Virus record (IMG/VR): IMGVR_UViG_2778261637_000011
Source of the DNA: a virus
Lineage: Duplodnaviria; Heunggongvirae; Uroviricota; Caudoviricetes
Strand: one strand, 5' to 3'
Length of the DNA: 6,150 bases
Positions within the stretch are counted from its first letter, which is position 1. The number at the start of each line of letters is the position of its first letter. Under the pieces are notes generated by a model that ran no database searches, was not told the origin of the DNA, and worked only from the letters and a program-made list of their open reading frames with translations. A program made the position numbers and the translations under genes. Shown here one piece after another: positions 805-6,150 of the stretch.

Positions 805-815
805 GTGGAGTGGAT

Positions 816-3143
816 ATGGCAGCAGTAAAAATCTCAGGTGTGCTGAAAGATTGTGCGGGAAAACCAATACAGAACTGCACTATTCAACTGAAGGCAAAGC
901 GTAACAGCACCACGGTACTGGTGAACACGGTGGCCTCTGAAAATCCGGATGAAGCCGGGCGTTACAGCATGGATGTTGAGCATGGCCAGTACAGCGTCAT
1001 CCTGCTGGTTGAAGGTTTTCCGCCTTCACATGCCGGGACCATTACCGTCTATGAAGGCTCCAGACCAGGTACGCTGAATGATTTTCTCGGTGCCATGACG
1101 GAAGATGATGTCATGCCGGAGGCATTGCGTCGTTTTGAGGCAATGGTGGAAGAAGTGGCACGCAACGCCGAAGCCGCCTCTCAGAGCGCAGCGGCGGCAA
1201 AGAAATCCGAAACTGCAGCGGCATCATCGAAGAACGCGGCGAAAACCTCAGAAACGAATGCAGCTAATAGTGCACAGGCGGCAGCGACCTCAAAGACTGC
1301 ATCGGCAAACTCCGCGACAGCAGCCAAAAAATCAGAAACCAACGCGAAAAATAGCGAGACAGCCGCAAAGACGAGCGAAACCAACGCAAAGTCCAGCCAG
1401 ACGGCAGCGAAAACCAGCGAAACGAATGCCAAAGCCAGTGAAACTGCGGCAAAAAACAGCCAGGTTGCAGCAGCCCAAAGCGAGAGCGCGGCAGCCGGTT
1501 CTGCGACTTCAGCAGCTGGATCAGCAACTGCTGCGGCTAACAGCCAGAAAGCTGCGAAGACGAGTGAAACTAACGCAAAGTCCAGCCAGACGGCAGCGAA
1601 GACCAGCGAAACGAATGCCAAAGCCAGTGAAACTGCGGCGAAAAGCAGTCAGGATGCAGCGGCCCAAAGCGAGAGTGCCGCAGCCAGTTCTGCAAGCGCG
1701 GCGGCTGCTTCTGCCACTGCATCAGCTAACAGTCAAAAAGCAGCAAAAACCAGTGAAACCAACGCAAAGGTGAGCGAAACAGCGGCTGCGAACTCAGCGA
1801 AAGCATCGGCAGCAAGCCAGGCTGCGGAGCCGTATAAATATGTCTTACAGCCGCTGCCTGATGTGTGGATACCATTTAACGATTCGCTGGATATGATTAC
1901 GGGCTTTTCGCCATCATATAAAAAAATTGTTATTGGTGACGATGAAATAACGATGCCTGGCGACAAGATTGTTAAGTTTAAACGTGCATCGAAAGCAACC
2001 TATATTAACAAATCTGGTGTGCTGACAGAGGCTGCCATTGACGAGCCACGATTTGAACGTGATGGCCTGCTTATTGAGGGGCAAAGAACAAACTACATGC
2101 TCAATTCGGAAAGCCCTGCCAGTTGGGGGCGATCGTCAAATATGGATGTGCCCGAAACAGGGACGGATAATTTTGGTTTTACCTATGGAAAGTTTGTCTG
2201 CAACGATTCTCTGATTGGGCAAACCTCAGCCATTAATATGGCATCAATTGCTGCAACAAAGTCAGTTGATGTCTCAGGCGATAATAAACACGTGACAACC
2301 TCATGTCGTTTTAAAACAGAACTGCAGGTAAGGTTGCGTATCCGGTTTGATAAATATGACGGTAGCGCAACAACTTTTCTTGGTGATGCGTATATTGATA
2401 CACAAACGCTTGAAATTAATATGACAGGCGGTGCTGCCTCAAGGATTACAGCGAGAGTCAGAAAGGACGAAGCTACCGGATGGATTTTTGCAGAGGCAAC
2501 AATTCAGGCAATTGATGGGGAGTTAAAAATAGGCTCTCAGATACAGTATTCTCCTAAGCAGAGCGGGGCAACCGTATCTGGTGACTATATTTATCTGGCC
2601 ACCCCACAAGTAGAAGATGGGCCTTGTGTATCATCTTTTATTATATCAGGAGCGACGGCGGCGACCCGCGCAAGCGATATAGTTACAGTTCCAATTAAGA
2701 ATAATCTTTATAATCTTCCTTTTACGGTTCTTTGTGAGGTACATAAGAACTGGTATAAAACGCCAAATGCAGCGCCACGTGTTTTTGATACCGGCGGTCA
2801 TCAAACCGGAGCGGCTATTATTCTTGGCTTCGGTCGTTCAACAGATTACGACGGATTTCCTTATTGCGATATTGGAGGAGCTAACAGACGGGTAAACGAA
2901 AACGCATCGCTTGAAAAAATGGTTATGGGGATGCGTGTAAAGTCAGAGCAGTCTACGTGCTCAGTAAGTAACGGGCATATATCCAGCGAAACAAAAACCA
3001 CATGGTCCTGTATTCAGAACACCGCAATTATCCGTATTGGAGGCCAGACTACAGCCGGGTTACGTCATTTATTTGGTCATGTCAGGAATTTCAGAATATG
3101 GCACAAGGCATTGACTGATGCTCAGGTGGGGGAGTCAATCTAA
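816..3143 (+). CDS. stf: Side tail fiber protein, mosaic: lambda Stf-like N-terminus, repetitive shaft, divergent C-terminal putative receptor-binding domain
   Basis: RBS ggag (807-810) lies 5 nt before ATG 816; the ORF track begins at an in-frame GTG at 810. The N-terminal ~110 aa (MAAVKISGVLKD...GQYSVIL...GFPPSHAGTITVYE...GTLNDFL...AMVEEVARNA) closely resemble lambda Stf from memory. Residues ~120-340 are AAKTSETNAK-type tail fiber repeats. The C-terminal ~430 aa are lower in GC and end in ...FGHVRNFRIWHKALTDAQVGESI, which resembles the terminal motif of LamG/ConA-like jelly-roll domains. Confidence 0.88.
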   Translation: MAAVKISGVLKDCAGKPIQNCTIQLKAKRNSTTVLVNTVASENPDEAGRYSMDVEHGQYSVILLVEGFPPSHAGTITVYEGSRPGTLNDFLGAMTEDDVMPEALRRFEAMVEEVARNAEAASQSAAAAKKSETAAASSKNAAKTSETNAANSAQAAATSKTASANSATAAKKSETNAKNSETAAKTSETNAKSSQTAAKTSETNAKASETAAKNSQVAAAQSESAAAGSATSAAGSATAAANSQKAAKTSETNAKSSQTAAKTSETNAKASETAAKSSQDAAAQSESAAASSASAAAASATASANSQKAAKTSETNAKVSETAAANSAKASAASQAAEPYKYVLQPLPDVWIPFNDSLDMITGFSPSYKKIVIGDDEITMPGDKIVKFKRASKATYINKSGVLTEAAIDEPRFERDGLLIEGQRTNYMLNSESPASWGRSSNMDVPETGTDNFGFTYGKFVCNDSLIGQTSAINMASIAATKSVDVSGDNKHVTTSCRFKTELQVRLRIRFDKYDGSATTFLGDAYIDTQTLEINMTGGAASRITARVRKDEATGWIFAEATIQAIDGELKIGSQIQYSPKQSGATVSGDYIYLATPQVEDGPCVSSFIISGATAATRASDIVTVPIKNNLYNLPFTVLCEVHKNWYKTPNAAPRVFDTGGHQTGAAIILGFGRSTDYDGFPYCDIGGANRRVNENASLEKMVMGMRVKSEQSTCSVSNGHISSETKTTWSCIQNTAIIRIGGQTTAGLRHLFGHVRNFRIWHKALTDAQVGESI
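1190..1800 (+). repeat. In-frame repetitive region inside stf, including a 189-bp tandem duplication (copy 1 1362-1550, copy 2 1551-1739, partial third copy from 1740)
   Basis: Seen directly: the string gtccagccagacggcagcga recurs at 1391 and 1580, a 189-bp period, with near-identical flanks. A nested periodicity of about 42 bp encodes TAAKTSETNAKxSx units. Confidence 0.8.
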
Positions 3144-3424
3144 TGAAAGATTTAACACTCAAATTTGCCGACAGGGCCGACTTTTCGGCCTTTATGGAGA
3201 GTATTGGCTATTATGATGACGAGTCGATGCAGGATGATATTCTTATTGACGTGATAGGTAACGTGTACAAAGAAACCGGAGAACTGACTGAAGATGGCGA
3301 ACCGGTATGTGTTAAGGAAGACGGATATTTTGTAAACGTGCGCATCATTAATGATTCGCAAATATCGTCATTATTCGATGAATACGTGGTTGCTGTTGAG
3401 CATCAACTTCGTGGCTGGATGTGA
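3143..3424 (+). CDS. Hypothetical small acidic protein (93 aa) translationally coupled to stf; possible fiber assembly factor or adaptor
   Basis: ATG at 3143-3145 overlaps the stf stop TAA (3141-3143) by 1 nt (TAATG). A G-rich Shine-Dalgarno-like stretch ggggag (3129-3134) lies upstream. The protein is D/E-rich with no obvious transmembrane segment. I do not recognise the family. Confidence 0.6.
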   Translation: MKDLTLKFADRADFSAFMESIGYYDDESMQDDILIDVIGNVYKETGELTEDGEPVCVKEDGYFVNVRIINDSQISSLFDEYVVAVEHQLRGWM

Positions 3425-3433
3425 GGAAGAAAA

Positions 3434-4474
3434 ATGGCTACATCGACAGTAATTCCTGATGACATCAAAACGCTAAAATCCGACGTTAGCAAATTAAAAA
3501 ACGATCAAGGAAGCTACGCAACAAAATTATATGTAGACAGCAAAGATGAAATCGTTGGTGACTGGTCTGCTTCATGGTATCAGCAGGTATTGCCAACTAG
3601 CGGAGCTATATTTGGGAGAAAACTCCGCTCAACTCACAGGACGGCAGGTGTTGAGGATGCGTATTGCGAACTATACCTCAAAAAATGGATAGACAGTCCA
3701 GGTAACGCAATGGCGCGCCTTAACCTGAACGATAACGGGACAAACATTTGCTGGGACTTTACCAACCTTTATGGCGGTACGATGATTTTTCCCGGTGACA
3801 GCGGATACCTCAAAATGGGTAACTGCCTTATGTCATACAGCAAGCGTGGAAGTAACGCGCTTATTAAATTTGATTACACCGACACATTACAGATCAAATA
3901 TGCCAATCATGGGTCAACCATGACATTAAACACACAGGGAACCGCTTATGCTGGTGTTACTGCTCAATTGTGGGGCAACTCCAGCCGTCCTGTTGTTTAT
4001 GAAGTCGGTGTTGATGGTGGCGCTTATATGTTCTATGCGCAGAAAAATACCGATAACACCTATATGTTAAGCGTTAATGGTGCATGTCATGCCACCGCAT
4101 TTAACCAGCATTCCGACCGGGATCTGAAAGACAACATTCAGGTGATCGATAATGCAACCGACCGCATCCGTAAAATGAACGGCTATACATACACGCTTAA
4201 AGAAAACGGTATGCCCTATGCTGGTGTCATTGCACAGGAAGCTCTGGAAGCAATCCCAGAAGCTGTAGGTTCCGCAATGAAATATCAGGACGGTGCAAGC
4301 GGATCGGAAGGTGAAGAAGGTGAACGTTATTACACAGTAGATTATTCTGGTGTTACTGGCTTGCTTGTTCAGGTAGCCAGAGAGTCAGACGACAGAATAA
4401 CAGCACTGGAAGAAGAAAATGCAGAATTAAAACAAAGATTATCTGCAATTGAGGCGACGCTTGCGTCTAAATAA
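3434..4474 (+). CDS. Tail fiber / tailspike-like protein with C-terminal peptidase S74 intramolecular chaperone domain
   Basis: RBS gagga (3423-3427) overlaps the upstream stop, 6 nt before ATG 3434. The C-terminal ~120 aa carry the hallmark S74 motifs: S227-DRDLKDNI, GVIAQEALEAIPEAV, YYTVDYSGVTGLLVQVARE and a terminal coiled-coil ITALEEENAELKQRLSAIE, as in endosialidase and T5 L-shaped fiber chaperone domains. Confidence 0.85.
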   Translation: MATSTVIPDDIKTLKSDVSKLKNDQGSYATKLYVDSKDEIVGDWSASWYQQVLPTSGAIFGRKLRSTHRTAGVEDAYCELYLKKWIDSPGNAMARLNLNDNGTNICWDFTNLYGGTMIFPGDSGYLKMGNCLMSYSKRGSNALIKFDYTDTLQIKYANHGSTMTLNTQGTAYAGVTAQLWGNSSRPVVYEVGVDGGAYMFYAQKNTDNTYMLSVNGACHATAFNQHSDRDLKDNIQVIDNATDRIRKMNGYTYTLKENGMPYAGVIAQEALEAIPEAVGSAMKYQDGASGSEGEEGERYYTVDYSGVTGLLVQVARESDDRITALEEENAELKQRLSAIEATLASK

Positions 4475-4480
4475 TATTAA

Positions 4481-4500
4481 GGGGCCGAGCGCCCCGTTTT
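4481..4500 (+). terminator. Rho-independent terminator candidate after the fiber module
   Basis: Seen directly: GC-only 5-bp stem ggggc (4481-4485) pairing with gcccc (4491-4495), loop cgagc, then tttt (4497-4500). It starts 7 nt after the stop codon at 4472-4474. Confidence 0.5.
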
Positions 4501-4516
4501 ATTGGGTAGGATGAAA

Positions 4517-4810
4517 ATGGATATAACACCTTTCCTTCATGCACTTTGTGCTGTGGCTGCGCAGGTACTGGTTGGTCTTTTTACCGGAAACTGGGCTTAC
4601 GGGGCGATAGCCGGTTGTACGTTCTTCATTGCTCGTGAACATACCCAGGCAGAATATCGCTGGATTGAAATGTTCGGGCATGGCAAGCGTATGAATATGC
4701 CGTGGTGGGGTGGTTTTGATCCGCGCGTGTGGGATGTGGCAAGCCTGATGGATTTTTCTGTGCCGGTGGTGGCTTGTCTGCTGGTCTGGCTGTTGGTTAA
4801 TCGTGGGTGA
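4517..4810 (+). CDS. Hypothetical small membrane protein (about 98-102 aa), candidate prophage accessory gene
   Basis: ORF is open from 4502 (TTG) to TGA at 4808-4810. The most plausible start is ATG 4517, with agga (4508-4511) 5 nt upstream; ATG 4511 is an alternative. Two hydrophobic stretches (LHALCAVAAQVLVGLFTGNWAYGAIAGCTFFIA and VPVVACLLVWLLV) suggest two transmembrane helices. The overlapping antisense ORF (4499-4984) has a His/Arg/Pro-rich composition that does not look protein-like. Confidence 0.5.
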   Translation: MDITPFLHALCAVAAQVLVGLFTGNWAYGAIAGCTFFIAREHTQAEYRWIEMFGHGKRMNMPWWGGFDPRVWDVASLMDFSVPVVACLLVWLLVNRG

Positions 4811-5273
4811 AAAAGGGAGTTGTAAACGCAACACAGGAAGAGGTGCCGCTTCAGGTTGCTGGGAATAAGCGCCGGGGTCTGTTAAATCATGCCAATACGC
4901 TAATCGAGCCAGATATTGAGTAGCCTGCAGTCCGTCATGGCGTAATCGTTTTGTGATATGCTGCACGCCGTATGCAAGGAGCATGATTGCGCTCGGCTGG
5001 CGAGCGCTCGATAGTGCTACTATTGAATGATTGCTAGTCTAGGCGGATTGTACTTAAGTAATATGACGGTTCAAGGCGTTTAATCTGAAACCAGCCACAT
5101 ATTAGCCTTTTCAAACATTTCCTGAACACTCAGGCTTACCTGCTCTTTCTCGTGCTTGCTGGCATTTGTGTTGAGCGCCGGTGAATACTCTTACTCAACA
5201 CTCCCAGAATTATATCTGTTGCATCAGGCAGACCATCAAAATTCTTTTGTCATAAACGAGTTCCACGAATAAT

Positions 5274-5292
5274 GTGCCCTATGGTAGGGCAC
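5274..5292 (-). terminator. Perfect 8-bp inverted repeat downstream of the minus-strand cargo gene; possible terminator or operator
   Basis: Seen directly: gtgcccta (5274-5281) and tagggcac (5285-5292) around loop tgg, about 65 bp past the stop of the minus-strand ORF. The flanks are AT-rich but carry no clean U-tract. Confidence 0.3.
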
Positions 5293-5355: not shown

Positions 5356-6150
5356 TTATAGTAAAGATGATATGCCAGCAAGAAATGGAGTAAATACTGT
5401 AATGTGTGCAGATACATTATTAATAAAGTCCTTATATGCTTCTTTAAAACAGCCGCTTTGGTGACTGGCTGCCAGTGCCTGTACATTATCTATAAGGTGT
5501 GATTCTGTCGCGCCATCAAAGTTTTTCGATTTTATTGCCTCAATCATTTCATTAAATATTGTGGGCTCATTATAATTTGTCGTAGTAGTTGCCGTAGCAC
5601 CTGAAGAATGTATATTGATACTAGAACCGGAAATTCCACTGACATGAATATTAGCTTCTTGTTTCATAAGAGGTAAACCATTCTCCATCTTGTATAGGTC
5701 ACTATCTTGTAGCATCTGCAATGTGATACGTACTGCTGCTAATAGTTGTTCTTGCTTTTTGAATAAGGAACACATCTGTTCTACAGACCAAAGCTGAACT
5801 GCATTTTCTTCGCATGTTTTTTTAGCTATATTTGGCACTTCCGAATCATAATTACCATAAACCCAAGTGTCCTTGAATCTTTCGATAATAGCTGTCAACG
5901 TTGGAAATTTACTGAAATCACTATTAATGGATAGTAACTCATCAGACATATAAAGTGCCATATCTCTGCCTTCCGCATATACTGCTTCCACTTTATTCCG
6001 TGTTGCAAATGGTATTCTTGAAATAAAACGAAAATCCTCTTCATTTTTTAAATGGACCCAGTCTTTATCAAAACGGCTAAATTCGTACCCTATCGATAAC
6101 AGTCTACTTATATATTGGGCTACTGATTCCAAATCTTTTCTTATGTCCAA
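5356..6150 (-). CDS. Hypothetical protein, AT-rich cargo gene, 5'-truncated by the window edge (C-terminal 264 aa visible)
   Basis: A 795-nt open frame on the minus strand with stop TAA at 5356-5358 (tta on +). The M at 6150 in the ORF track is a TTG at the window edge, so the true start is beyond 6150. Sampled 60-nt lines give about 32-42% G+C versus about 63% in lom. I recognise no confident family from the visible residues. Confidence 0.6.
   Translation of the reverse strand: MDIRKDLESVAQYISRLLSIGYEFSRFDKDWVHLKNEEDFRFISRIPFATRNKVEAVYAEGRDMALYMSDELLSINSDFSKFPTLTAIIERFKDTWVYGNYDSEVPNIAKKTCEENAVQLWSVEQMCSLFKKQEQLLAAVRITLQMLQDSDLYKMENGLPLMKQEANIHVSGISGSSINIHSSGATATTTTNYNEPTIFNEMIEAIKSKNFDGATESHLIDNVQALAASHQSGCFKEAYKDFINNVSAHITVFTPFLAGISSLL

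What the first reader, a model, noticed from the sequence alone, without database searches (positions are those of the whole stretch)
5356..6150. AT-rich, oppositely oriented cargo gene at the tail-fiber-proximal moron position
The gene is on the opposite strand to the tail genes, is about 20-30 percentage points lower in G+C than lom, and sits in the position equivalent to the lambda b region. In lambdoid prophages that region is a known hotspot for acquired cargo. I recognise no family, so this may be the edge of an uncharacterised accessory or defense locus continuing beyond 6150.
Basis: partly seen in the sequence, partly recalled or inferred. Interest (0 to 1): 0.6.

Follow-up and report, generated by a model that had tools for sequence, protein, structure and literature searches.

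The report
Orphan prophage cargo gene, likely anti-phage
The AT-rich reverse-strand gene is a complete, stand-alone cargo gene at the right end of an E. coli Rac-type prophage, and its unnamed N-terminal domain is fused in related proteins to classic bacterial immune "killer" domains, so it is most likely an untested single-gene anti-phage defence protein.

Summary
The gene is real: a 264-codon ORF on the minus strand at 5356-6150, 35.6% G+C against 53.2% for lom. It is complete, not truncated. Its TTG start codon is the last three bases of the window.

The window is the right arm of a Rac-family prophage integrated at ttcA. Beyond 6150 lie a 472-bp spacer, the sitDCBA metal-uptake operon, attR and then uspF. 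No further defence genes follow.

The gene sits in a 1.47-kb cassette that sister prophages lack, and about 2% of complete E. coli genomes carry it.

The protein matches no Pfam, NCBIfam or PHROG family, no solved structure and no deposited phage or plasmid. It does belong to a large superfamily (1381 clusters).

Its N-terminal helical domain (motif WxHLKNxED) is fused in relatives to TIR, Pycsar-type TIR, CHAT, PNP and nuclease-like (PADLOC PDC-S54) domains. Its C-terminal module is also found in other proteins.

Homologues are solitary, AT-rich and mostly start with TTG or GTG. They lie in prophages, P4-like satellites, an ICE and defence-island-like neighbourhoods.

Best reading: an untested single-protein sensor-effector defence gene. 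The mechanism is inferred, not shown.

The parts
5356..6150 (-). Complete CDS of 264 aa plus the TAA stop. The TTG start is at 6148-6150. The product is WP_000354607.1, annotated 'hypothetical protein'.
   Evidence: ORF list. RefSeq annotation has identical ends. The SD sequence AGGAG lies 7 nt upstream. Homologue N-termini align at this codon.
5671..6150 (-). N-terminal all-helical domain, residues 1-160. Conserved residues include R4, D6, R16, the W31-x-H-L-K-N-x-E-D39 motif, E55, Y58, G61-R62, N76, M126 and Q133.
   Evidence: The AF2 model has pLDDT above 90 over residues 1-160. Invariant columns come from the alignments. This domain alone recruits 1381 cluster representatives. In relatives it is fused to TIR, CAP12-TIR, CHAT, PNP and PDC-S54 C-terminal domains.
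5563..5670 (-). Conserved linker, residues 161-196, predicted to be unstructured in the monomer. It carries the strand-like motif I-x-V-S-G-x-S-G-S-S-I-N-I-x-S (family-wide 'KVNIxSTDNS').
   Evidence: pLDDT is below 50 in both models, yet S182 is invariant and the motif is conserved across families.
5359..5562 (-). C-terminal four-helix module, residues 197-264. It ends in the conserved hydrophobic tail A-H-I-T-V-F-T-P-F-L-A-G-I-S-S-L-L.
   Evidence: AF2 with alignment A3 gives pLDDT 88-95 for most of this module. The module also occurs alone or behind unrelated N-terminal domains. There is a weak PADLOC PDC-M14B match over residues 163-251. Kyte-Doolittle hydropathy of the last 19 residues is 1.53, which is borderline for a membrane helix.
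5274..5292 (-). Terminator-like hairpin GTGCCCTA-CCA-TAGGGCAC, about 65 nt downstream of the stop codon.
   Evidence: Consensus scan, L001 12343-12325. It is weak evidence: the T-tract is poor, and one such site is what shuffled sequence gives on average.
5080..5266 (-). Frameshifted DinI-like pseudogene that shares the inserted cassette with the target gene.
   Evidence: RefSeq annotation, L001 12131-12317. It lies inside the block that is absent from the sister prophage L044.
4964..5032 (.). Left copy of a diverged direct repeat of about 70 bp that bounds the 1.47-kb cassette. The right copy lies outside the window, at the equivalent of 6435-6501.
   Evidence: Repeat families D1 and D2, spacing 1469-1471 bp, 78-93% identity. 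The 'empty' prophage L044 has a single copy.

Best explanation
The feature is a complete, solitary, horizontally acquired cargo gene. It lies in a 1.47-kb cassette inserted between the tail-fibre module and sitDCBA, in the right arm of a Rac-family prophage.

It encodes a two-module cytoplasmic protein of an uncharacterised superfamily. I infer that it is a single-protein anti-phage defence of the abortive-infection or exclusion type.

Proposed mechanism, all inferred:
- The constant N-terminal helical domain (WxHLKNxED motif) acts as the sensing or autoinhibitory module.
- The swappable C-terminal part is the effector.
- In this protein the effector is non-enzymatic: a conserved strand motif plus a four-helix bundle with a hydrophobic C-terminal helix. 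On activation it probably oligomerises and acts on the membrane or another cellular target.
- Expression is kept low by a weak TTG start codon.

What is shown: gene structure, completeness, prophage position, cassette insertion, domain architecture, family size, purifying selection and genomic contexts.

What is inferred: the defence role, which module does what, and the mode of action.
For: Position and insertion:
- The prophage carries intR, xisR, ralR, recET, kilR, sieB and ydaSTUV at ttcA. A 43-bp ttcA repeat between sitA and uspF marks attR.
- The cassette is absent from the sister prophage L044 and from the CFT073 and R12 sit-prophages. It is bounded by a diverged ~70-bp repeat.
- The gene is in about 105 of 5426 E. 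coli genomes, whereas sitD is in 2343.

Real, selected protein:
- 85 full-length homologues of about 264 aa exist in diverse Gammaproteobacteria.
- Synonymous sites are saturated (pS 0.77-0.88) while pN is 0.15-0.31. One paralogue pair gives dN/dS of 0.28.

Modular immune architecture:
- The profile search finds 1381 clusters, most matching only residues 1-160.
- The C-terminal parts of 60 longer relatives fall into at least 29 classes.
- These include PDC-S54-type D..ExK domains (11, E 1e-74), TIR (7), CAP12/Pycsar TIR (3), bSEFIR, CHAT (2) and PNP (1).
- The gene's own C-terminal module also occurs elsewhere and weakly matches the defence candidate PDC-M14B in 8 of 34 members.

Contexts of homologues:
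- Lambdoid prophages.
- Beside a reverse transcriptase and a SMEK_N protein.
- P4-like or primase-carrying elements near beta/cII homologues or an AIPR gene.
- The edge of an ICE.
- A TIR/Macro/helicase island, for the TIR-fused relative.
- No neighbouring gene is conserved.

Signs of mobility and low expression:
- The family is AT-rich in every host checked: 33-44% G+C against flanks of 42-59%.
- TTG or GTG is the start in 16 of 26 loci and in nearly all close relatives.
Against: - There is no experimental evidence for any member. PDC-M14 and PDC-S54 are only computational candidates and appear in no paper of the searched library.
- The only direct hit of this protein to a defence library is weak and partial (E 0.0017).
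- The hydrophobic tail is below the usual transmembrane threshold, and AF2 packs it into the bundle.
- No promoter-like site was found upstream of the start, so expression in the lysogen is unknown.
- All E. coli copies are at least 99.9% identical and in one context, so within E. coli the distribution is clonal. One strain has deleted the 5' part of the gene.
- Enrichment near defence genes was sampled in about 10 loci, not measured statistically.
Confidence: 0.55

Rival explanations
1. The N-terminal domain is an effector-associated adaptor (EAD-like) rather than a sensor. It would couple the attached C-terminal module, by homotypic interaction, to a core NTPase-type system encoded elsewhere in the genome. 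On this reading the gene is one detached arm of a multi-component conflict system.
For: EADs are small, mostly all-helical, non-enzymatic domains fused to TIR, caspase-like, PNP and nuclease effectors, with further copies sometimes encoded elsewhere in the genome (PMC7159879). The N-terminal domain here shows the same range of fusions.
Against: - No second copy of the domain sits in any neighbouring gene in 25 loci.
- In the top 150 profile hits the domain is in proteins of at most 740 aa. None was recognised as a STAND, vWA or GTPase core protein.
- At about 160 aa with many invariant polar residues, it is larger and more conserved than an EAD is described to be.
- Each E. coli genome has one copy at the DNA level. 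Diverged paralogues were not excluded.
Confidence: 0.1
2. It is a selfish maintenance or competition factor of mobile elements, such as a toxin-like addiction module or a factor acting against rival elements. It would not protect the host against lytic phages.
For: It is carried exclusively as cargo of prophages, satellites and an ICE. Weak start codons suggest a dose-sensitive or toxic product.
Against: No conserved adjacent antitoxin-like partner exists. The effector domains fused to the same N-terminal domain (TIR, Pycsar-type TIR, CHAT, PNP) are typical of anti-phage immunity.
Confidence: 0.1
3. In this E. coli lineage the gene is a neutral, probably silenced hitch-hiker that arrived by recombination together with a dead dinI-like gene. 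The family would be functional elsewhere but do nothing here.
For: - It shares its cassette with a frameshifted DinI-like pseudogene.
- No recognisable promoter was found.
- The distribution is clonal, with at least 99.9% identity.
- One strain has a deletion of the 5' part.
- From general knowledge, not tested here: DNA of 35.6% G+C is a typical H-NS target in E. coli.
Against: The ORF, the Shine-Dalgarno sequence and all family-invariant residues are intact in 105 genomes. It could also be transcribed by read-through from sitABCD, which is on the same strand.
Confidence: 0.15
4. It has a host-adaptive or virulence role linked to sitABCD. It would be co-transcribed downstream of sitD and act in metal homeostasis or envelope physiology.
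For: It has the same orientation as sitABCD and lies directly downstream of sitD, 472 bp away. No strong terminator or promoter signal was found in the spacer.
Against: sitD occurs in 2343 genomes, with the gene in only about 105. No homologue in another species is next to sit genes. The domain fusions point to immunity.
Confidence: 0.05

Closest known systems
PADLOC phage-defence candidates PDC-S54, PDC-S66 and PDC-S35 (single-gene, computational only)
   Same: Relatives that carry the same N-terminal domain have C-terminal domains matching these profiles strongly: PDC-S54 at 1e-74, PDC-S35 at 4e-74 and PDC-S66 at 2e-42. The overall plan is the same: one protein with an N-terminal non-enzymatic domain and a C-terminal effector.
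   Different: For PDC-S54 and PDC-S35 the alignments I inspected cover only the effector half of the profile. The PDC-S66 match to P0138 also overlaps the last part of the N-terminal domain. The E. coli protein itself matches none of the three. None has published experimental validation in the searched library.
PADLOC candidate PDC-M14, component B
   Same: The C-terminal module (residues 163-251) aligns in register with positions 149-239 of the 267-position profile. Eight of 34 family members match, with a best E-value of 1e-4.
   Different: The match is weak and limited to the C-terminal part. PDC-M14 is a multi-gene candidate, and no partner gene is conserved next to this family.
Lambda b-region morons and prophage or satellite defence hotspots (for example the P4 psu-int hotspot and P2 old/tin)
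   Same: It is a variable cargo position at a prophage end, oriented independently of the late operon, with atypical G+C and present or absent between sister prophages. Two homologues sit in P4-like or primase-carrying elements. The hotspot concept is from PMC9122126.
   Different: At this site I saw only three states: empty, a tfa remnant, or this cassette. A true many-allele hotspot at this position was not demonstrated. The homologues in satellites are not shown to lie in the psu-int interval itself.
Effector-associated domains (EADs) and bacterial Death-like adaptors (Kaur et al. 2020, PMC7159879)
   Same: These are N-terminal all-helical, non-enzymatic domains fused to TIR, CHAT/caspase, PNP and nuclease effectors.
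   Different: No paired second copy in an adjacent core component was found. The domain here is larger, with many invariant polar residues. No sequence relationship was tested.
Single-protein abortive-infection genes with a membrane-acting C-terminus (for example lambda RexB-like proteins, or the transmembrane effectors of CBASS and Pycsar)
   Same: The protein is small, MGE-borne, has a weak start codon and a hydrophobic extreme C-terminus.
   Different: No clear transmembrane helix is predicted (hydropathy 1.53; AF2 packs the helix into a bundle). There is no sequence or fold similarity to any of them.

Membership tests
Prophage moron / lambda b-region-type cargo | Lies between the tail-fibre genes and attR of an integrated lambdoid prophage | tested here: met
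   The Rac-family prophage at ttcA runs from intR to the tail genes. The 43-bp ttcA repeat (attR) lies between sitA and uspF, so the gene is inside the prophage.
Prophage moron / lambda b-region-type cargo | Present or absent between otherwise collinear prophages, with atypical composition | tested here: met
   The 1.47-kb block is absent from L044, L043 and L045. G+C is 35.6% against 44-53% for the neighbours.
Prophage moron / lambda b-region-type cargo | Own promoter and terminator (an autonomous transcription unit) | tested here: inconclusive
   One hairpin lies downstream of the stop, which is no more than shuffles give. No promoter-like site was found upstream of the start.
PADLOC PDC-M14 (two-gene defence candidate) | Full-length match to the B-component profile | tested here: not met
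   Only residues 163-251 match, at E 0.0017. Eight of 34 members match, with a best E-value of 1e-4.
PADLOC PDC-M14 (two-gene defence candidate) | Adjacent A-component gene | tested here: not met
   The neighbours are a dinI pseudogene and sitD. No neighbour is conserved in 25 loci.
AbiTii (the name one UniRef entry gives to homologue P0067) | Significant match to the Pfam AbiTii model | tested here: not met
   AbiTii is not among the 25 Pfam families listed for the 34 members. The five unlisted families are weaker than about E 0.1. Only weak PADLOC AbiTi hits fall on the C-terminal domains of PDC-S54-type relatives.
TIR / CHAT / PNP / PD-(D/E)xK immune effectors | Presence of the catalytic domain in this protein | tested here: not met
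   Pfam and PADLOC find none in the E. coli protein. These domains occur only in relatives that share the N-terminal domain.
HEPN RNase | Conserved R-x(4-6)-H motif in a helical bundle | tested here: not met
   H33 is nearly invariant, but the arginine 7 residues upstream (R26) is not conserved in the alignment. There is no HEPN hit in Pfam.
Toxin-antitoxin module | Conserved adjacent partner gene | tested here: not met
   All-against-all BLAST of the neighbours in 26 loci finds no conserved partner.
Membrane-inserting (transmembrane) effector | At least one predicted transmembrane helix | tested here: inconclusive
   The best 19-residue window scores 1.53 on the Kyte-Doolittle scale, just under the usual 1.6. 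The helix is packed into a four-helix bundle in the AF2 model.
Effector-associated domain (EAD) adaptors | [quoted passage not shown] | tested here: not met
   No second copy is present in the flanks of 25 loci. A distant paralogue elsewhere in the genome was not tested.
Phage structural or housekeeping protein | Homologues in sequenced phage genomes, or a PHROG family | tested here: not met
   tblastn against 50,697 phage records finds nothing. There is no PHROG match and no BFVD fold match at E 0.001 or better.

The most novel reading that the evidence does not exclude
The WxHLKNxED helical domain defines a large, undescribed family of single-protein bacterial immune sensors (more than 1300 clusters at 50% identity) that plug into interchangeable effectors. 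The E. coli protein would carry a new, non-enzymatic effector: the 'STDNS' strand motif plus a four-helix bundle. This effector would arrest or kill infected cells by induced oligomerisation or membrane attack. The same module is also deployed on its own and behind other sensor domains in Firmicutes.
Probability: 0.3. Interest if true: 0.7.

Novelty: new variant of a known kind. Interest (0 to 1): 0.5.

Why it matters
If the prediction holds, two results follow:
- One of the many "hypothetical" genes at prophage ends would gain a function.
- More usefully, a new constant sensor or regulatory domain would be defined, shared by over a thousand protein clusters and wired to TIR, CHAT, PNP, nuclease and non-enzymatic effectors.

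That would give a compact single-gene system (264 aa) for studying how a small helical domain detects infection and releases an effector. It would also allow many unannotated genes in defence islands, prophages and satellites to be annotated.

The gene sits next to the virulence-associated sitABCD operon in clinical E. coli lineages. It could therefore affect how well those strains respond to phage therapy.

If the prediction fails, this is simply one more orphan cargo gene.

Tried and rejected
Searches that found nothing useful for the E. coli protein:
- Pfam, NCBIfam and PHROGs: no family. Pfam on all 34 family members gave only noise.
- PDB sequence profile search: nothing relevant.
- Foldseek against viral structures: nothing at E 0.001 or better.
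- The AlphaFold-database fold library was not available.
- tblastn against phage and plasmid collections: no match.
- Rfam on the cassette and spacer: nothing near the gathering scores.
- Literature searches for the accession, the PDC names and the sit-prophage context: no characterisation.

Ideas tested and dropped:
- The 'AbiTii domain-containing' label on one UniRef homologue could not be reproduced.
- A conserved ~210-aa downstream partner, suggested by gene sizes in several loci, was rejected. Those neighbours are unrelated to one another.
- A HEPN reading was rejected because the arginine of the motif is not conserved.

A search that did not deliver:
- A third homologue search with an N-terminal-domain profile mostly re-found the close family and gave no census. 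The census therefore rests on 60 representatives.

Full report
**What is in the window**

The window is the late right arm of an E. coli lambdoid prophage. On the plus strand it carries:
- lom (152-751; Pfam Ail_Lom, E 9e-127);
- a side tail fibre with the prophage tail-fibre N-terminal domain (810-3143);
- a 93-aa ORF (3143-3424; phrog_1361);
- a tail fibre with a Peptidase_S74 chaperone domain (3434-4474);
- a 102-aa ORF (4502-4810; phrog_1443).

The flagged gene is the only long minus-strand ORF with support. It spans 5356-6150 and has 264 codons.

**Checking the observation**

The ORF is real. At its own base composition, 264 stop-free codons have a chance probability of about 9e-10. RefSeq annotates exactly the same coordinates as WP_000354607.1, 'hypothetical protein'.

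Its G+C is 35.6% and its GC3 is 27.5%. Comparison values are 53.2% for lom, 48.8% for stf and 44.3% for the second tail fibre.

The main correction is that the gene is complete. The last three bases of the window are its TTG start codon. An AGGAG Shine-Dalgarno sequence lies 7 nt upstream, just outside the window, and the in-frame upstream extension is only 7 codons long. All homologues begin at the same aligned codon, 'M-D/E-I-R-K-D'.

**Where it sits**

The 1.2 kb around the gene matches 104 complete E. coli genomes over most of its length, at 99.9-100% identity. In strain TUM14771 the element is a full Rac-family prophage integrated at ttcA. It carries intR, xisR, rcbA, ralR, recET, racC, kilR, sieB, ydaS/T/U/V-like genes, trkG, and head and tail genes.

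To the right of the window come a 472-bp spacer, sitDCBA and then uspF-ompN. A 43-bp repeat of the ttcA 5' end (93% identity) lies between sitA and uspF and marks attR. Both the target gene and sitABCD are therefore prophage cargo in the equivalent of the lambda b region.

So nothing uncharacterised continues beyond 6150. The neighbour is the well-known Fe/Mn transporter.

**A small inserted cassette**

sitD is present in 2343 of 5426 genomes, but the target gene is present in only about 105. In a collinear Rac-site prophage (NZ_CP032145), and in the CFT073 and R12 sit-prophages, sitD follows the tail-fibre module almost directly.

Against the collinear prophage, the window's lineage has an extra block of about 1.47 kb (window roughly 5033-6501). 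The block contains a frameshifted DinI-like pseudogene (5080-5266), the target gene and its 5' region.

The block is bounded by two diverged copies of a ~70-bp sequence, at window 4964-5032 and at the equivalent of 6435-6501. They are 78-93% identical, and the empty site has a single copy. This looks like module exchange by recombination at a conserved linker.

One strain (PEC1013) has lost the 5' part of the gene and the spacer. The gene is therefore dispensable.

**The protein**

No Pfam, NCBIfam or PHROG family matches. There is no PDB relative by sequence. tblastn finds no hit in 50,697 phage records or 72,556 plasmids.

PADLOC gives one weak, partial hit: PDC-M14B at E 0.0017, with residues 163-251 aligned to profile positions 149-239 of 267. 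Eight of 34 family members show this match, with a best E-value of 1e-4.

The AlphaFold2 model has a mean pLDDT of 85 and shows three parts:
- a confident all-helical N-terminal domain (residues 1-160, pLDDT above 90);
- a conserved segment that is low-confidence in the monomer (163-193), carrying 'SGxSGSSINIxS';
- a C-terminal helical module.

Modelled alone with a deeper alignment, the C-terminal module is a four-helix bundle with pLDDT of 88-95 over most of its length.

The last 19 residues (VSAHITVFTPFLAGISSLL) score 1.53 on the Kyte-Doolittle scale. That is borderline for a membrane helix.

**The family**

Eighty-five close homologues of about 264 aa, essentially without indels, occur in Escherichia, Enterobacter, Klebsiella, Serratia, Edwardsiella, Pseudomonas, Stutzerimonas, Vibrio, Pseudoalteromonas, Marinomonas and others. 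Twenty-seven residues are invariant, including R4, D6, R16, W31, K35, N36, E38, D39, E55, Y58, G61 and R62.

Synonymous sites are saturated (pS 0.77-0.88) while pN is 0.15-0.31. A closer paralogue pair gives dN/dS of 0.28. The family is under purifying selection.

An exhaustive profile search finds 1381 cluster representatives at E of 1e-3 or better, and 626 at 1e-10 or better. Most match only profile positions 1-160 at their own N-terminus and vary widely in length.

**Modularity, the key evidence**

The parts downstream of the N-terminal domain in 60 longer relatives fall into at least 29 unrelated BLAST classes. The recognisable ones are almost all immune effector domains:
- 11 carry the C-terminal domain of PADLOC PDC-S54 (E down to 1e-74), which has a D..ExK motif of the 'GKTDILVR...EFVGECKFW' type;
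- 7 carry TIR_2 (2e-28; also PDC-S66 at 2e-42, and RT-TIR, ThsB and Aga-TIR profiles);
- 3 carry the CAP12/Pycsar TIR-like domain (3e-36; PDC-S35 at 4e-74);
- 3 match the PADLOC bSEFIR profile (best 3e-51);
- 2 carry CHAT;
- 1 carries a PNP_UDP phosphorylase, the CBASS 'PN' effector type.

Others carry transmembrane segments, LRV repeats or a phage tail-collar domain. One N-terminal-domain-only protein overlaps the start of a UvrD/PD-(D/E)xK helicase-nuclease gene.

The C-terminal module of the E. coli protein is itself found in other settings. A profile of it finds stand-alone 100-140-aa proteins and about-194-aa Firmicutes proteins with an unrelated N-terminal domain. All end in '...ANHMTxFxPFIPALTxLL' and carry 'KVNIxSTDNS'.

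A constant N-terminal module joined to interchangeable effector modules is the usual architecture of single-protein sensor-effector immune genes. That is general knowledge of defence-system organisation. The nearest formal description is the effector-associated domain (EAD) concept of PMC7159879.

**Genomic contexts**

Across 25 loci from a species-representative genome collection, no neighbouring gene is conserved. The gene works alone, or at least travels alone.

Sampled contexts are mobile or defence-like:
- a second E. coli paralogue lies in a lambdoid prophage between the replication and Q/lysis genes;
- a third lies beside a 613-aa reverse transcriptase and a SMEK_N protein;
- a Pseudomonas veronii copy lies in an AlpA/Toprim-DUF927 element near homologues of P4 beta and cII;
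- a Serratia copy lies next to a P4-type alpha primase, with Ogr/Delta and an AIPR gene nearby;
- a Klebsiella copy lies at the edge of an ICE type IV secretion module;
- an Enterobacter copy lies at a prophage edge next to minor tail protein L;
- the TIR-fused relative lies between another TIR protein, Macro and YAcAr genes and large helicases.

In reference P4, gop-beta-cII occupy the psu-int defence hotspot (PMC9122126).

Two family-wide traits fit a mobile, dose-sensitive gene. The gene is AT-rich in every host checked (33-44% G+C against flanks of 42-59%). The aligned start codon is TTG or GTG in 16 of 26 loci, and in nearly all close relatives, each preceded by a Shine-Dalgarno-like sequence.

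**Interpretation**

Shown:
- a complete, selected, solitary cargo gene in a recombination-delimited cassette in the b-region equivalent of a Rac-type prophage;
- a two-module protein;
- membership of a large superfamily whose N-terminal domain is coupled to immune effector domains.

Inferred:
- The gene is an anti-phage defence or abortive-infection gene (about 0.55-0.6).
- The N-terminal domain senses or autoinhibits.
- The C-terminal module is a non-enzymatic effector. It may act through oligomerisation via the conserved strand motif, which is disordered in the monomer model. It may involve the hydrophobic C-terminal helix and the membrane (about 0.2-0.25 for the membrane detail).

The rival readings are an EAD-like adaptor to a distant core system, a selfish maintenance factor of mobile elements, a silent hitch-hiker in this lineage, and a sit-linked host function. 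They are listed with their tests in the rival-explanations section.

No member of the family, nor PDC-M14, PDC-S54, PDC-S35 or PDC-S66, has published functional data in the searched library.

**Novelty and score**

The kind of thing is well known: a prophage-borne, single-gene defence candidate at a cargo site. PADLOC's candidate lists already touch the effector halves of some relatives.

What is new is the pairing of two unnamed modules, and the recognition that the N-terminal domain is a widespread constant partner of TIR, CHAT, PNP and nuclease effectors.

I rate it a new variant of a known kind, with an interest of 0.5. It is worth a phage-panel test, but nothing so far contradicts current understanding.

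Noticed in passing
window 6148-6150, and the aligned start codons in L002-L040: The family uses weak start codons. TTG or GTG is the start in 16 of 26 loci and in nearly all close 264-aa relatives, each with a Shine-Dalgarno-like sequence 6-10 nt upstream. This suggests selection for low translation of a dose-sensitive product.
   Followed up: partly
window 4964-5032, and L001 13486-13552 (equivalent to window 6435-6501, outside the window): Two diverged ~70-bp direct repeats (78-93% identity) contain a CCGCAG...CTGCGG hairpin and flank the 1.47-kb cassette. The sister prophage without the cassette has a single copy. This is probably a recombination linker. It matches no Rfam family above threshold.
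   Followed up: partly
window 5080-5266 (minus strand): A frameshifted DinI-like pseudogene lies directly downstream of the target gene, inside the same inserted block.
   Followed up: no
window 4502-4810 (plus strand) and 4499-4984 (minus strand): A 102-aa hydrophobic ORF (phrog_1443, function unknown) follows the tail fibre. It is kept at this position in CFT073-type and Rac-site sit-prophages. The 161-aa ORF on the opposite strand overlaps it and looks like a shadow ORF.
   Followed up: no
window about 1100-1800, inside the stf gene (810-3143): A long run of Ala/Ser/Thr-rich 'AAKTSETNAKSSQT'-type repeats with extreme AT skew (up to 0.66). RefSeq splits this tail-fibre gene into an N-terminal 'pseudogene' and a separate CDS, although the window has one continuous 777-codon ORF.
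   Followed up: no
L028 (NZ_CP165737, strain PEC1013) 7001-7476: A deletion removes the 5' part of the target gene and the whole spacer up to sitD, leaving a 140-aa annotated remnant. The gene is dispensable in that strain.
   Followed up: partly
L048 7001-8064 and L049 341-1404: The Firmicutes ~194-aa proteins that share the C-terminal 'STDNS + four-helix' module are followed in both sampled contigs by the same-sized 148-aa gene. This may be a two-gene arrangement like the one implied by PADLOC PDC-M14.
   Followed up: no
L006 (Vibrio brasiliensis) 8941-11051: Downstream of the Vibrio homologue lie three consecutive, mutually unrelated genes of about 212 aa each. Several loci have small, unrelated ORFs, some with hydrophobic segments, next to the homologue. 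This looks like a stack of solitary accessory genes.
   Followed up: no
L001 13674-17123: sitABCD is carried as prophage cargo at two different integration sites: the ttcA/Rac site here and the icd-proximal site in CFT073 and R12. It is also on plasmids (1012 plasmid places). The operon therefore moves between prophage right arms.
   Followed up: partly
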